From assembly GCF_055900595.2 (NCBI RefSeq), contig NZ_CM148325.1: a DNA stretch of 64,000 bases; one strand, written 5' to 3'. Positions 1-61,590 of the stretch are shown piece after piece (within the stretch, counting starts at the first letter, position 1; the number at the start of each line of letters is the position of its first letter). The notes under the pieces are model-generated. The model saw nothing but the letters and a program-made list of their open reading frames with translations, was not told where the DNA came from and ran no database searches. The translations under genes were made by a program, and so were the position numbers.

Positions 1-1
1 T

Positions 2-619
2 ATTGAATTTGCGCTTGGCAAGCAGGTATTAAAGTTTGGCGAGTTTACGCTGAAGTCCGGGCGCAAAAGCCCCTATTTCTTCAACGCCGGGCTGTTTAAT
101 ACCGGGCGCGATCTGGCACTGTTAGGCCGTTTTTACGCTGAAGCGTTAGTGGATTCCGGCATTGAGTTCGATCTGCTGTTTGGCCCTGCTTACAAAGGGA
201 TCCCGATTGCCACCACAACTGCCGTGGCGCTGGCGGAGCATCATGACCTGGACCTGCCGTACTGCTTTAACCGCAAAGAAGCAAAAGACCACGGTGAAGG
301 CGGCAATCTGGTTGGTAGCGCGTTACAAGGACGCGTAATGCTGGTGGATGATGTGATCACCGCCGGAACGGCGATTCGCGAGTCGATGGAAATTATTCAG
401 GCCAATGGCGCGACGCTTGCTGGTGTATTGATTTCGCTCGATCGTCAGGAGCGTGGTCGCGGCGAGATTTCGGCAATTCAGGAAGTTGAGCGTGATTACA
501 ACTGCAAAGTGATCTCTATCATCACCCTGAAAGACCTGATTGCTTATCTTGAAGAGAAGCCGGAAATGGCGGAACATCTGGCGGCGGTTAAGGCCTATCG
601 CGAAGAGTTCGGCGTTTAA
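2..619 (+). CDS. pyrE: orotate phosphoribosyltransferase, 5' end cut by window edge
   Basis: Frame from nt 2 translates [30 protein letters not shown]..., continuous with the track ORF 149..619 and ending ...AYREEFGV; matches PyrE as I remember it. Confidence 0.95.
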
Positions 620-626
620 AAATATG

Positions 627-655
627 CGCTGCGCAGGTTTTTACTGTGCGCAGCG
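627..655. terminator. perfect 9-bp inverted repeat (cgctgcgca / tgcgcagcg) just after pyrE stop; likely pyrE terminator or attenuator-like hairpin
   Basis: Inverted repeat read directly; no strong T-run after it. Confidence 0.45.
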
Positions 656-689
656 TGATGCGGTTTAAGATATCGTGTTAATCTGCTTT

Positions 690-883
690 CGCCAGCAGTG
701 GCAATAGCGTTTCCGGCCTTTTGTGCCGGGAGGGTCGGCGAGTCGCCGACTTAACGCCAGTAGTTTGTCCAGATACCCAAAGTCGCTCCATTGTACTTAA
801 GTACGCTTCGCGTACGTCGCGCTGACGCGCTCAGTACAGTTACGCGCCTTCGGGATAGTTTGAGGGTATTGCCGCTGTTGGTG
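690..883 (+). ncRNA. msr-msd: retron msr-msd locus (template for msDNA), bounded by a1/a2 inverted repeats
   Basis: a1 (cgccagcagtggcaatagc, ~690-708) and a2 (ggtattgccgctgttggtg, ~865-883) can pair over about 18 of 19 positions as RNA including G-U wobbles; several internal palindromes (gtcggcg/cgccgac, gtacgc/gcgtac, gcgc-tgac-gcgc) typical of msd stem-loops; lies immediately 5' of an RT ORF. Confidence 0.7.
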
Positions 884-915
884 CCTCTTTTGGTCGCCGT
901 GATGTGGAGAGTGGA

Positions 916-1875
916 ATGGATGCTACCCGGATAACCCTTCTGGCGCTTGATTTGTTCGGCTCGCCGGGCTGGAGCGCCGATAAAGAAATACAGCGGCTGT
1001 ATGCGCTCAGTAATCATGCCGCACGCCATTACCGACGGATTATTCTTTCTAAGCGTCACGGCGGTCAGCGGGTGGTGTTAGCCCCTGATTACTTGCTCAA
1101 AACCGTACAGCGCAACATTCTTAAGAACGTCCTTTCACAATTCCCTCTTTCCCCTTTTGCTACCGCCTACCGACAGGGTCGCCCAATCGTCAGCAACGCG
1201 CAGCCTCACTGCCAACAGCCGCAGATCCTTAAACTCGATATCGAAAACTTTTTCGATAGCATTAGCTGGTTACAGGTCTGGCGTGTGTTTAGCCAGACCC
1301 AGTTGCCACGCAATGTGGTAACCATGCTGACCTGGCTTTGTTGCTATAACGACGCGTTACCGCAGGGGGCGCCAACTTCGCCTGCCATTTCCAATCTTGT
1401 GATGCGCCGTTTTGATGAGTGCATAGGGGAATGGTGTCAGGCTCGGGGAATTACCTACACCCGCTACTGCGATGACATGACCTTTTCTGGTCACTTCAAT
1501 GCCCGCCAGGTTAAAAATAAAGTATGCGGATTGTTAGCGGAGCTGGGCCTGAGCCTCAATCAACGCAAAAGTTGCCTGATAGCTGCCTGTAAGCGCCAGC
1601 AGGTAACCGGGATTGTTGTTAATCACAAGCCACAGCTTGCCCGTGAAGCGCGCCGGGCGCTGCGTCAGGAAGTACACTTGTGCCAAAAATATGGCGTTAT
1701 TTCGCATCTTAGTCATCGTGGTGAACTTGATCCTTCTGGCGATCTCCACGCACAGGCAACGGCGTATCTTTATGCTTTGCAGGGAAGAATAAACTGGTTA
1801 TTGCAAATCAATCCTGAGGATGAGGCCTTTAAACAGGCGAGGGTGAGTGTAAAGCGAATGCTGGTGGCATGGTAA
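916..1875 (+). CDS. retron-type reverse transcriptase (Ec107-like), 319 aa from ATG at 916
   Basis: Track ORF 904..1875; RT motifs QGAPTSPAISNL and YCDDMTFSG (YxDD box); GGAG Shine-Dalgarno 6 nt before the ATG at 916; position between pyrE and slmA matches the described retron-Ec107 site. Confidence 0.85.
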   Translation: MDATRITLLALDLFGSPGWSADKEIQRLYALSNHAARHYRRIILSKRHGGQRVVLAPDYLLKTVQRNILKNVLSQFPLSPFATAYRQGRPIVSNAQPHCQQPQILKLDIENFFDSISWLQVWRVFSQTQLPRNVVTMLTWLCCYNDALPQGAPTSPAISNLVMRRFDECIGEWCQARGITYTRYCDDMTFSGHFNARQVKNKVCGLLAELGLSLNQRKSCLIAACKRQQVTGIVVNHKPQLAREARRALRQEVHLCQKYGVISHLSHRGELDPSGDLHAQATAYLYALQGRINWLLQINPEDEAFKQARVSVKRMLVAW

Positions 1876-1883
1876 GAAAAGCG

Positions 1884-1905
1884 TCAGGCAGACGTTTCTG
1901 CCTGA
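1884..1905. terminator. hairpin (tcaggcaga-cgtt-tctgcctga) between convergent RT and slmA
   Basis: Perfect 9-bp stem with 4-nt loop read from sequence. Confidence 0.4.
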
Positions 1906-1918
1906 ACGTTTGGGAGAA

Positions 1919-2515
1919 TTACTGCAACTGCGCAGCAATTAGCGGCCAGCGGGCGTCAAAGTCATCCGTCGGGCGGTATTTAAACTCGCTGCGGACAAAG
2001 CGTGACAGCATACCTTCACAGAAGGCCAGGATCTGGCTTGCCAGCAGGGTTTCGTCGGTGGTGTAACCTTCACCCTCACGCATTCTCTTTTCACGCAATA
2101 CCTGACGCAACTGCGCTTCAATACGCTCGAATAGCTGGTTGATGCGCCCTTGCAGGCGATCCTGTTCAAACATTAGTGCATGACCAGTGAGGATGCGGGT
2201 CAGGCCAGGATTACGCTCACCAAAACCGAGAAGCAGCAACACAATCAGACGCAGGCGCGCTGTGGTGTCTTTCTCATCTTTCAGAATCAGATTGATGCGA
2301 GTAATCAGGCTATCTTCGATAAACTCAATCAGGCTATCGAACATGCGGGTCTTACTGGGGAAGTGGCGATACAGTGCCGCTTCGGAAACGCCGACAGAGG
2401 CGGCCAGTTTTGCCGTCGTGATACGTTGGCTTCCATCGCTGGATTCCAGCATCAGCGCCAGAGACTGAAGTATTTCCTCGCGACGGTTCCTTTTCGCAGT
2501 TTGTTTTTCTGCCAT
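1919..2515 (-). CDS. slmA: nucleoid occlusion factor SlmA (TetR family), 198 aa
   Basis: Track ORF 1919..2557; start placed at [19 protein letters not shown]... (ATG at 2513-2515). Confidence 0.9.
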
Positions 2516-5806: not shown

Positions 5807-5855
5807 TATCTGCTTGCCCCCATATTGACTGCATCTGTTGATTCCTGGAGATGCT

Positions 5856-6665
5856 ATGCCTGAATTACCCGAAGTTGAAACCAGCCGCCGCGGCATAGAA
5901 CCGCATCTCGTTGGTGCAACCATTCTTCATGCGGTGGTGCGCAACGGACGCCTGCGCTGGCCGGTTTCGGAAGAGATCTACCGTTTAAGCGACCAACCAG
6001 TGCTTAGCGTGCAGCGCCGGGCTAAATATCTGCTGCTGGAGCTGCCTGAGGGCTGGATTATCATTCATTTAGGGATGTCTGGCAGCCTGCGCATCCTTCC
6101 AGAAGAGCTTCCCCCTGAAAAGCATGACCATGTTGATTTGGTGATGAGCAACGGCAAAGTGCTACGCTACACCGATCCGCGCCGCTTTGGTGCCTGGCTG
6201 TGGACCAAAGAGCTGGAAGGGCACAACGTGCTGGCCCATCTTGGACCGGAGCCGCTTAGTGACGATTTCAACGGTGAGTACCTGCATCAGAAGTGCGCGA
6301 AGAAAAAAACGGCGATTAAACCGTGGCTGATGGATAACAAGCTGGTGGTAGGCGTAGGGAATATCTATGCCAGCGAATCTCTGTTTGCGGCGGGGATCCA
6401 TCCGGATCGGCTGGCGTCATCACTGTCGCTGGCGGAGTGTGAATTGTTAGCTCGGGTGATTAAAGCGGTGTTGCTGCGTTCGATTGAGCAGGGCGGTACA
6501 ACTCTGAAAGATTTTCTGCAAAGTGATGGTAAACCGGGCTATTTCGCTCAGGAATTGCAGGTTTACGGGCGAAAAGGCGAGCCGTGTCGGGTGTGCGGTA
6601 CGCCGATTGTGGCGACGAAACATGCGCAGCGGGCAACGTTTTATTGTCGGCAGTGCCAGAAGTAA
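5856..6665 (+). CDS. mutM: formamidopyrimidine-DNA glycosylase
   Basis: Start at [14 protein letters not shown]-terminal zinc finger [26 protein letters not shown]. Confidence 0.95.
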
Positions 6666-6703
6666 TTGATGCGCGCCGGATGGCATACCATCCGGCATAA
6701 ACG

Positions 6704-8468
<1,765 letters not shown>

Positions 8469-8819
8469 AGTAAATAGCTGACTTATGGATGTGCTGGGGA
8501 TTCTATGTATTTAGCTGTGGCTTTACCATTACTTTTCCCGTTTTTGACTTAAATAGCAATTTACCCACCAATTCTTGCTGAACATCTATACTTTTTTTGT
8601 ATTTTTATGCGATTCATTGATTTCCGCAGTACGTGCAGTAAGGAATCGCGGAGCAACAGTGAAAGAATATTGTTGCTAATGATTTTATTTGATTGATTTC
8701 TTTATTGAAAAACAACGATGTGCTTAAAAATCATTCGGATCGGATTGCCGCGAAAGAAGTGATACACTAGCGCGTCAATATCAGTACGGTATCAGTATTC
8801 AGGTAGCTGTTGAGCCTGG

Positions 8820-8831
8820 GGCGGTAGCGTG
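8820..8831 (+). promoter_or_regulatory. ops element (GGCGGTAGCGTG) in the waaQ leader, expected RfaH recruitment site within a JUMPstart-like region
   Basis: Exact ops 12-mer read about 50 nt upstream of waaQ start. Confidence 0.8.
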
Positions 8832-61504: not shown

Positions 61505-61590
61505 CAGGCTTGATAAGACGCGTTAAGCGTCGCATCAGGCAATGTGCACCCTACGTTGGATGCGGCGCGAGCGCCTTATCCAACCTACGG
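61505..61590. repeat. REP/BIME element overlapping the stop codon of the downstream GH127 gene
   Basis: aggcttgataagacgcgttaagcgtcgcatcaggca and ggatgcggcgcgagcgccttatccaacctacgg. Confidence 0.65.

What the first reader, a model, noticed from the sequence alone, without database searches (positions are those of the whole stretch)
627..655. Perfect palindrome retained between pyrE stop and the retron
The literature describes the retron as replacing a palindromic intergenic sequence downstream of pyrE, yet a perfect 9-bp-stem hairpin is still present here at the pyrE-proximal edge. It may be the pyrE terminator and mark the left retron boundary, or it may be part of the element.
Basis: partly seen in the sequence, partly recalled or inferred. 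Interest (0 to 1): 0.3.

Follow-up and report, generated by a model that had tools for sequence, protein, structure and literature searches.

The report
Conserved hairpin flanking retron-Ec107 insert
The small hairpin just after the pyrE gene is real and conserved, but it arrived with the well-known retron-Ec107 insert rather than being left over from the empty site, and it most likely ends or protects the pyrE message ahead of the retron's own promoter, which makes it a tidy but ordinary feature.

Summary
The 9-bp perfect hairpin at 627-635/647-655 is real. It was not "retained". Against retron-free E. coli, the window-specific DNA is 621-1917 (1,297 nt). It replaces exactly the 34-nt K-12 palindrome, which is an unrelated hairpin, so the hairpin lies inside the inserted DNA, 6 nt from the left junction.

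It occurs in exactly the 381 of 5,426 complete E. coli genomes that carry the retron, and never without it. Retron orthologues (RT 67-87% identical) occupy the same pyrE-slmA spacer in other genera. All of them keep a hairpin 2-8 nt after the pyrE stop. Loops range from 3 to 15 nt, four base pairs show compensatory changes, and the G·U wobbles fall almost entirely on the pyrE-sense strand. That pattern fits an RNA hairpin in the pyrE 3' UTR.

The hairpin lies upstream of an invariant extended -10 (676-684) that precedes msr. It is absent from related Leminorella retrons, which sit between cyaY and cyaA. Four unrelated versions of the pyrE-slmA spacer each place a GC hairpin at this same position.

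Best reading: a pyrE 3'-end terminator or stabiliser that also insulates the retron. It is not a canonical terminator, because no U-tract follows it. Interest is low to moderate.

The parts
1..619 (+). 3' part of pyrE (orotate phosphoribosyltransferase); stop codon TAA at 617-619
   Evidence: ORF; RefSeq annotation of identical or near-identical E. coli records
621..1917 (+). 1,297-nt DNA present only in retron-bearing genomes. It replaces the 34-nt K-12 sequence GAAACTCGCCGGATGAAAAGTCATCCGGCGTCAT. Left junction 620/621, right junction 1917/1918.
   Evidence: Base-by-base walk against the DH10B empty site L001; empty-site sequences
626..656 (+). The hairpin. Perfect 9-bp stem 627-635/647-655. 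On the + strand RNA it is extended by G626·U656 and by three inner pairs (636-638 with 643-645, G646 bulged).
   Evidence: conserved with covariation across 11 distinct versions
676..684 (+). TGTTAATCT, an extended -10-like element (TGnTAnnnT). It is invariant in all 11 aligned lineages and ends 6 nt before a2. Predicted msr promoter, with no recognisable -35.
   Evidence: Invariant columns T60 G61 T63 A64 T68 of alignment A2. The consensus scan found no -35/-10 promoter here. The promoter assignment is inferred.
690..706 (+). a2 inverted repeat (5' end of msr), followed by the presumed branching G at 707
   Evidence: Inverted repeat I6; 17-bp a2/a1 stem in the ncRNA fold, z -6.7
690..883 (+). 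Retron ncRNA (msr-msd) from a2 to a1. Two small msr hairpins and a long msd hairpin.
   Evidence: Fold -89.9 kcal/mol, z -6.67. No Rfam family matches.
760..866 (-). Predicted msd (template for the 107-nt msDNA). Limits inferred from the a1 position and the element's name.
   Evidence: DNA fold of the 107-nt product. Limits are inferred, not measured.
867..883 (+). a1 inverted repeat
916..1875 (+). Retron reverse transcriptase, 319 aa, with a YCDD catalytic box
   Evidence: ORF translation; RefSeq 'reverse transcriptase family protein' of 319 aa at the same place; PF00078 in homologues; YCDD reported for RT-Eco5/Ec107 (PMC6868368)
1884..1905 (.). Right-end hairpin TCAGGCAGA cgtt TCTGCCTGA. On the - strand it is followed by CGCTTTTCTT, a canonical intrinsic terminator for slmA. 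It also lies 8 nt after the RT stop.
   Evidence: Terminator scan; folds with z -4.4 on both strands; homologous hairpin in all pyrE-slmA lineages
1919..2515 (-). slmA (nucleoid occlusion factor), convergent with pyrE and the RT
   Evidence: ORF; RefSeq annotation

Best explanation
The hairpin is an RNA stem-loop in the 3' untranslated end of the pyrE (rph-pyrE) message. It belongs to the retron-bearing version of the pyrE-slmA spacer. In retron-free E. coli, one 10-bp hairpin between the two convergent genes serves both of them. In the retron version that hairpin is gone and its job is split. The 626-656 hairpin, 6 nt after the pyrE stop, ends and/or protects pyrE transcripts. It also keeps pyrE read-through from entering the retron, which has its own extended -10 promoter about 20 nt further on. 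The 1884-1905 hairpin terminates slmA and the RT gene. Shown here: the structure, its boundaries, its strict linkage to the retron, its conservation with compensatory changes, its strand bias, and its position relative to the stop codon and promoter. Inferred: that it actually stops or stabilises pyrE RNA, and how efficiently it does so.
For: (1) It lies inside the 1,297-nt insert and is not in the empty site. It is present in exactly the 381 retron-bearing E. coli genomes and in no others.
(2) Retron orthologues in the pyrE-slmA spacer of a divergent Escherichia, Pseudocitrobacter cyperus and three unnamed groups all carry a homologous hairpin 2-8 nt after the pyrE stop.
(3) In a stem-anchored alignment of 11 distinct versions, 93% of cells are paired and 4 pairs change on both sides. 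No shuffle out of 500 reaches the observed score, and slid controls give 20-58% pairing. Loop length ranges from 3 to 15 nt. This is the behaviour of a folded single strand, not of a duplex protein-binding site.
(4) About 9 independent G·U wobbles lie on the pyrE-sense strand, against 2 A·C pairs, both at stem ends. The + strand fold is 7-11 kcal/mol better than the - strand fold in the three Escherichia versions folded and in L032, and never clearly worse.
(5) TGnTAnnnT at 676-684 is invariant in all lineages and sits 6 nt before a2. The hairpin is therefore upstream of the retron promoter, and the only + strand RNA expected to contain it is the pyrE transcript.
(6) Leminorella relatives at cyaY-cyaA begin homology at about window 657 and lack the hairpin block, so it is not part of the retron core.
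(7) Four unrelated spacer versions each place a GC-rich hairpin 6-8 nt after the pyrE stop: K-12 type, L024 type, the version carrying an SGL (SMP-30/gluconolactonase/LRE-like) gene, and the retron version.
Against: No U-tract follows the stem on the + strand in any lineage (UGAUGCGG... in the window), and the loop in E. coli is 11 nt. The consensus terminator scan does not flag it, so it is not a canonical intrinsic terminator, and read-through may be substantial. There are no transcript-end data. In Escherichia only, the - strand copy is followed by CAUAUUUUUA, which looks more terminator-like than the + strand does. Leminorella retrons manage with no hairpin after the upstream gene. The wobble count is small (binomial p about 0.03), the events are not all phylogenetically independent, and alignment A3 was anchored by hand on the stem.
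Confidence: 0.6

Rival explanations
1. The hairpin is a cis-regulatory element of the retron. In this reading it acts as a leaky attenuator or processing site in a pyrE-retron co-transcript. It would set how much retron ncRNA and RT is made from pyrE read-through, and so tie retron expression to pyrimidine or starvation status.
For: The hairpin has the same + strand RNA signature. It lacks a U-tract, so termination is probably incomplete. It is strictly linked to the retron. Literature reports starvation- and ppGpp-induced Ec107 expression (cited in PMC6868368). Mestre et al. note that the sister RT clade is linked to PRTase-like genes (PMC7736814).
Against: An invariant extended -10 immediately before a2 suggests the retron is transcribed on its own. 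Leminorella relatives have no such hairpin. Nothing here shows a co-transcript.
Confidence: 0.15
2. The hairpin is a relic or recognition structure of the event that placed the retron. One version is that the retron core inserted just downstream of an ancestral pyrE terminator hairpin, as terminator-targeting retroelements do. The other is that the two end hairpins are what remains of an ancestral two-hairpin spacer.
For: The retron core is bracketed by hairpins at both ends in every pyrE-slmA lineage. The whole stop-to-stop spacer differs between filled and empty sites in two genera. Both known sites lie between convergent genes.
Against: Neither hairpin exists at the Leminorella site. The native hairpins of the two empty sites examined are unrelated in sequence. 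Compensatory changes show present-day selection on the structure, not a decaying relic. The RT is a plain 319-aa retron RT, and no copies occur on plasmids or phages or at second sites in E. coli. An origin as an ancestral pyrE terminator would also be compatible with the best explanation.
Confidence: 0.1
3. The hairpin is a terminator for leftward (- strand) transcription. It would stop antisense RNA that leaves the retron, or slmA read-through, before it runs into pyrE.
For: In Escherichia the - strand stem is followed by CAUAUUUUUAAA. In Pseudocitrobacter the RT and slmA overlap end to end, with only the internal hairpin between them.
Against: The commonest E. coli allele (364 genomes), the divergent Escherichia and L032 carry changes that are G·U on the + strand and A·C mismatches on the - strand. 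Their - strand folds drop to -12 to -15 kcal/mol. There is no T-run on the - strand in the other genera. slmA has its own canonical terminator at 1905-1884.
Confidence: 0.08
4. The hairpin is a duplex-DNA palindrome bound by a dimeric regulator, serving as an operator next to the retron promoter.
For: It is a perfect palindrome ending about 20 nt upstream of the predicted -10 in E. coli.
Against: Half-site spacing varies between 3 and 15 nt. The distance to the -10 varies by about 10-20 nt between lineages. The half-site sequence itself changes by compensatory pairs. None of this fits a conserved protein-DNA contact.
Confidence: 0.03

Closest known systems
Retron-Ec107 (Retron-Eco5) of E. coli (Herzer, Inouye and Inouye 1992, as cited in PMC6868368 and PMC7736814)
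   Same: It sits between pyrE and slmA (ttk) and replaces a palindromic 34-bp spacer, reproduced here to the base. The insert is about 1.3 kb. The RT is 319 aa with a YCDD box and no effector gene. The a1/a2 geometry predicts a 107-nt msDNA.
   Different: Nothing differs about the retron itself; the window carries this element. The papers I could read do not describe the two end hairpins, their conservation, or the presence of the same element in other genera. The 1992 and 1996 primary papers were not available, so they may already mention the hairpin.
The native pyrE-slmA hairpin of retron-free E. coli (the 34-bp palindrome; 10-bp stem CGCCGGATGA/TCATCCGGCG)
   Same: The position is the same: the stem starts 7 nt after the pyrE stop. 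Stability is similar (-18.3 against -20.5 kcal/mol). It is GC-rich and has no good U-tract on the pyrE strand.
   Different: The sequence is unrelated. The native hairpin is shared by both convergent genes and has a U-rich tail on the slmA strand. The retron-linked hairpin serves only the pyrE side, and a second hairpin (1884-1905) serves slmA.
Rho-independent (intrinsic) transcription terminators
   Same: A GC-rich stem immediately downstream of a stop codon, and an RNA-level structure maintained by compensatory changes.
   Different: No U-tract directly after the stem on the pyrE strand, and an 11-nt loop in E. coli. It fails the consensus scan. It works like a 3'-end stem-loop but is not a canonical member.
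Terminator-targeting retroelements (bacterial group IIC introns insert just after terminator stem-loops; from established knowledge)
   Same: An RT-encoding element lying directly 3' of a stem-loop, in the orientation of the upstream gene.
   Different: There is no ribozyme (no Rfam hit) and no maturase or endonuclease domains. There is a single copy per genome at one fixed site. Relatives at cyaY-cyaA have no hairpin. This is a resemblance only.

Membership tests
Retron-Ec107 / Retron-Eco5 locus | Lies between pyrE and slmA (ttk) and replaces a 34-bp palindromic spacer | tested here: met
   Window 621-1917 replaces exactly 34 nt of the K-12 spacer. The literature statement is in PMC6868368.
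Retron-Ec107 / Retron-Eco5 locus | Retron RT of about 319 aa with a YCDD box instead of YADD | tested here: met
   The ORF 916-1875 translation contains RYCDDMTF. RefSeq annotates a 319-aa RT. YCDD is reported for RT-Eco5.
Retron-Ec107 / Retron-Eco5 locus | msr-msd upstream of the RT, bracketed by a2/a1 inverted repeats, with a G after a2 | tested here: met
   a2 690-706 and a1 867-883 form a 17-bp stem, with G707 following. The fold has z -6.7.
Retron-Ec107 / Retron-Eco5 locus | Produces a 107-nt branched msDNA | not testable with these tools
   The geometry predicts msd 760-866 (107 nt). Production itself was not measured.
Intrinsic (Rho-independent) terminator | GC-rich stem of at least 5 bp just downstream of a gene | tested here: met
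   9 perfect pairs, 7 of them G-C, starting 6-7 nt after the pyrE stop.
Intrinsic (Rho-independent) terminator | Short loop (3-8 nt) | tested here: inconclusive
   The loop of the perfect stem is 11 nt. With three extra inner pairs on the + strand it becomes 4 nt. Other lineages have loops of 3-15 nt.
Intrinsic (Rho-independent) terminator | U-tract directly after the stem on the transcribed strand | tested here: not met
   The + strand tail is UGAUGCGGUUUAAG. It is not flagged by the scan. No adjacent U-run is present in L006, L009, L015 or L032. Only the - strand in Escherichia has CAUAUUUUUA.
Intrinsic (Rho-independent) terminator | Transcripts end at the structure | not testable with these tools
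   No transcript-end data are available here.
Retron core (part of the transcribed or mobile retron unit) | Present wherever the retron lineage is found, and downstream of its promoter | tested here: not met
   It is absent from Leminorella relatives at cyaY-cyaA, whose homology starts at about window 657. It lies upstream of the invariant extended -10.
Duplex palindromic operator | Fixed half-site sequence and spacing | tested here: not met
   Spacing ranges from 3 to 15 nt, and 4 stem positions change on both sides.
Group IIC-type terminator-targeting retroelement | Ribozyme RNA plus a maturase-type RT, in multiple copies after terminators | tested here: not met
   No Rfam intron hit. One copy per genome at one site. 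No plasmid or phage copies.

The most novel reading that the evidence does not exclude
The hairpin is half of a 'terminator-replacement' casing. On this reading, this orphan retron lineage specifically colonises the few dozen bases between convergent housekeeping genes (pyrE/slmA in Escherichia, Pseudocitrobacter and relatives; cyaY/cyaA in Leminorella). It removes their shared terminator and, at the pyrE site, supplies its own stem-loops on both sides so that the neighbours stay correctly terminated. That would imply a targeted way of getting into terminator spacers for a class of elements thought to be immobile. A variant of this idea is that the leaky hairpin couples retron expression to pyrE, an orotate phosphoribosyltransferase. 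That echoes the PRTase-like partners of the sister RT clade noted by Mestre et al.
Probability: 0.1. Interest if true: 0.6.

Novelty: new member of a known kind. Interest (0 to 1): 0.25.

Why it matters
The result fixes the anatomy of a classic but poorly understood "orphan" retron. The 1.3-kb insert consists of a left stem-loop, an extended -10 promoter, msr-msd, the RT gene and a right terminator. The whole stop-to-stop spacer is swapped between carriers and non-carriers, rather than something being inserted into it.

People who clone or engineer Ec107/Eco5 can use this directly. The hairpin is not part of the ncRNA and can be left out. If it is kept, it may affect read-through from an upstream promoter.

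The comparison also shows that this retron is an old resident of the same spacer in several enterobacterial genera. It appears fixed in the samples of some of them. That argues the effector-less retron is maintained by selection. The comparison also gives a defined pair of sites (pyrE-slmA and cyaY-cyaA) for asking how such elements move.

The hairpin itself is an ordinary kind of feature.

Tried and rejected
Chance palindrome: rejected by conservation and covariation and by the background rate.

Hairpin retained from the empty site: rejected.

Known RNA family: there was no Rfam hit in 500-2100 even at E<=1. The only gathering-score hits are elsewhere in the window.

Sigma-70 -35/-10 promoter overlapping the hairpin: the scan found none.

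Import of the retron from another species by recent recombination: flank divergence from empty-site E. coli is ordinary (1.5-5%) and does not rise toward the junctions.

Mobile-element origin: there was no match on plasmids. The only phage hit is a 163-nt, 71% match inside the msr-msd region (window ~1325-1487 is wrong; query 705-867 = window 1325-1487 lies in the RT gene).

Searches that gave little:
- The genome-contig scan returned only one relative.
- The metagenome scan with the msr motif returned one E. coli copy plus chance hits in GC-rich DNA.
- SlmA and CyaY look-ups meant to find empty sites in the Pseudocitrobacter group, the L032 group and Leminorella returned only retron-bearing contigs.
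- Herzer 1992 and 1996 and Shimamoto 1995 are not held, and text searches for pyrE/slmA terminator papers found nothing.

I could not test whether any retron-free genome outside the two genera sampled has a GCTGCG-type hairpin after pyrE.

Full report
**What is at the coordinates.** Window 1-2515 reads as follows: the 3' part of pyrE (stop TAA at 617-619), a 1.3-kb non-K-12 segment, then slmA on the opposite strand (stop at 1919-1921), followed by dut and coaBC. The reported palindrome is exactly as described. CGCTGCGCA (627-635) pairs perfectly with TGCGCAGCG (647-655) across an 11-nt loop. As RNA, the + strand extends this to 13 pairs at -20.5 kcal/mol, and the - strand gives -16.5 kcal/mol. 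Perfect hairpins of 9 bp or more are about four times more frequent in this window than in composition-matched simulations (16 against 4.4 +/- 2.0). The chance of one in a given 40-nt stretch is about 0.003.

**Identity of the locus.** The segment carries a 319-aa reverse transcriptase (916-1875) with a YCDD box. Upstream of it is an msr-msd region bracketed by a 17-bp a2/a1 stem (690-706 and 867-883) with G707 after a2. This region folds into a typical retron ncRNA (z -6.7). The geometry predicts a 107-nt msd (760-866, - strand). Reviews describe Retron-Eco5 (Ec107) as replacing a palindromic 34-bp intergenic sequence, having YCDD, and lying next to an orotate phosphoribosyltransferase (PMC6868368, PMC7736814). 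This is that element. The sequence is identical to E. coli O127:H6 E2348/69 over the region tested.

**Boundaries.** I walked outward from the conserved gene ends against the DH10B (K-12) empty site. The window-specific DNA is 621-1917 (1,297 nt). The K-12-specific DNA is the 34-nt GAAACTCGCCGGATGAAAAGTCATCCGGCGTCAT (empty sites). This reproduces the published "34 bp" to the base.
- The hairpin therefore lies inside the inserted DNA, 6 nt from the left junction.
- The K-12 palindrome (10-bp stem CGCCGGATGA/TCATCCGGCG) is a different sequence and is completely absent.
- Nothing was "retained". Effectively the whole stop-to-stop spacer differs between the two states.
- Of 5,426 complete E. coli genomes, 381 carry the insert, always once and always here.
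- An 89-nt query centred on the hairpin hits exactly those 381 genomes and none of the others.
- Flank divergence between carriers and non-carriers is ordinary and does not rise toward the junctions.
- No copy exists on plasmids, and the only phage match is a short weak one.

**Relatives elsewhere.** RT homologues of 67-87% identity lie in the same pyrE-slmA spacer, in the same orientation. They occur in a divergent Escherichia (L005), in Pseudocitrobacter cyperus (L009) and in several unnamed enterobacterial groups (L006, L010, L032, L034, L013-L022).
- Every one has a GC-rich hairpin 2-8 nt after the pyrE stop, homologous to the window's. The core GCTGCG...CGCAGC and the following GTGAT are shared.
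- In genomes encoding the same SlmA protein as L006, the spacer has three states: empty (L024), retron (L025), or a gene with an SGL (SMP-30/gluconolactonase/LRE-like) domain (L023). The empty state has its own hairpin, GCCGGATAGCG ctta CGCTATCCGGC. The SGL state has yet another, CCCCGGCAG...CTGCCGGGG plus a U-tract.
- In two genera, then, the GCTGCG-type hairpin goes with the retron and not with the host's pyrE.
- RT relatives of 60-63% identity in Leminorella sit between cyaY and cyaA, another convergent pair. In the alignment from upstream stop codon to RT start, their homology to the E. coli element begins at about window 657. The roughly 40-nt hairpin block is simply missing, and no comparable hairpin folds there.

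**Is the structure selected, and on which strand?** I anchored the stems of 11 distinct versions on the conserved core. This alignment was built by hand, so it leans toward the structure.
- 93% of cells pair. Four pairs show changes on both sides: G-C/A-U, U-A/G-C, C-G/G-C and A-U/G-C.
- No shuffle out of 500 reaches the observed covariation or pairing, and sliding the partner by 1-3 columns drops pairing to 20-58%.
- Loop length ranges from 3 to 15 nt. That argues against a duplex operator.
- The non-Watson-Crick pairs inside stems are almost all G·U on the pyrE-sense strand, which would be A·C mismatches on the other strand. I count about nine independent cases, including one in a further E. 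coli variant (L041). Two A·C cases lie at stem ends. The one-sided binomial p is about 0.03.
- In the three Escherichia versions folded and in L032, the + strand fold is 7-11 kcal/mol better than the - strand fold. In the other lineages the two are within a few kcal/mol, with the - strand never clearly better.
- The selected object is therefore most likely an RNA hairpin in a + strand transcript.

**Which transcript?** All 11 aligned lineages, Leminorella included, share an invariant TGnTAnnnT (window 676-684, TGTTAATCT) ending 6 nt before a2. I read this as an extended -10 promoter for msr. This is an inference. The consensus scan finds no -35/-10 promoter in the region, which fits a promoter lacking a -35 element. 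The hairpin lies at about -63 to -35 relative to the predicted start. The only + strand RNA expected to contain it is therefore the pyrE (rph-pyrE) message.

**Mechanism proposed.** Four unrelated spacer sequences each place a stable GC hairpin 6-8 nt after the pyrE stop: K-12 type, L024 type, SGL type and retron type. This suggests pyrE needs a 3' stem-loop at that spot. In the retron version the shared bidirectional hairpin of the empty site has been replaced by two. The 626-656 hairpin serves pyrE. The 1884-1905 hairpin is a textbook terminator on the slmA strand (9-bp stem, 4-nt loop, CGCTTTTCTT) and also lies just after the RT stop. It too is conserved in the pyrE-slmA lineages and absent in Leminorella. 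I therefore read the finding as the pyrE 3'-end terminator or stabiliser of this version of the spacer, which also insulates the retron's own promoter from pyrE read-through.

**What is weak.** The hairpin is not a canonical intrinsic terminator.
- No U-tract follows it on the + strand in any lineage, and the scan does not flag it. The native K-12 hairpin is equally poor on that strand.
- It may act as a pause or partial terminator, or as a barrier to 3' exonucleases after termination further on.
- It could instead be a deliberate leaky gate controlling read-through into the retron.
- In Escherichia alone, the - strand copy is followed by CAUAUUUUUA. However, the commonest E. coli allele breaks that strand's stem.
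- I could not see transcript ends. I could not read the 1992 and 1996 primary papers.
- I could not survey retron-free spacers beyond two genera. It therefore remains open whether the hairpin began as the pyrE terminator of the lineage in which the retron first settled.

**Verdict.** The feature is a new, well-conserved example of a familiar kind of element inside an already known locus. Interest is low to moderate. The by-products may interest retron specialists more than the hairpin itself: deep conservation of this effector-less retron in the same spacer across genera, a second site between another convergent gene pair, and the invariant extended -10.

Noticed in passing
L006, L009, L010, L032, L034, L013-L022 (pyrE-slmA spacer); L011, L036, L037, L042-L049 (cyaY-cyaA spacer): Ec107-type retrons (RT 67-87% identical) occupy the same pyrE-slmA spacer in several other enterobacterial groups, including Pseudocitrobacter cyperus. 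Relatives of 60-63% identity in Leminorella sit between cyaY and cyaA, another convergent pair. The retron was present in every contig sampled for the Pseudocitrobacter-type SlmA and for L. grimontii CyaY. It is polymorphic in E. coli, where 7% of genomes carry it.
   Followed up: partly
window 1884-1905: A second perfect 9-bp hairpin lies 12 nt inside the right junction. On the - strand it is a canonical intrinsic terminator for slmA. It is conserved in all pyrE-slmA lineages. In Pseudocitrobacter it lies inside the last codons of the RT gene, whose stop overlaps the slmA stop by 4 nt. It is absent in Leminorella.
   Followed up: partly
window 676-684: TGTTAATCT matches TGnTAnnnT, which is invariant in all 11 aligned retron lineages and ends 6 nt before a2. 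It is a likely extended -10 promoter for msr with no recognisable -35.
   Followed up: partly
L023, L027, L028 compared with L024 and L025: Genomes encoding an identical SlmA protein show three alternative contents of the pyrE-slmA spacer: empty, the retron, or a 338-aa SGL (SMP-30/gluconolactonase/LRE-like) gene. Each has its own hairpin after pyrE, so the spacer looks like a small hotspot for cargo exchange.
   Followed up: partly
window 617-643: In Escherichia only, the left arm and loop can also form an A5...T5-flanked mini-hairpin (TAAAAATATGCGC/GCGCAGGTTTTTA, 85% complementary) that competes with the main stem. Its significance is unknown.
   Followed up: no
window 8793-8831 (+) and 61507-61585 (-): There are Rfam gathering-score matches to the JUMPstart element and to naRNA4 (CssrE). 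Both are unrelated to the finding.
   Followed up: no
window 6675-6696: A perfect 9-bp hairpin, GCCGGATGG cata CCATCCGGC, lies just after the mutM-like ORF (5838-6665). It shares the GCCGGAT...ATCCGGC flavour of the empty-site pyrE-slmA palindromes.
   Followed up: no
literature (PMC7736814): Mestre et al. report that only 2 of 59 RTs in the Ec107 branch are next to an OPRTase gene. Here, every relative of at least 67% identity whose context could be read is next to pyrE. The difference probably reflects sampling depth of close relatives.
   Followed up: no
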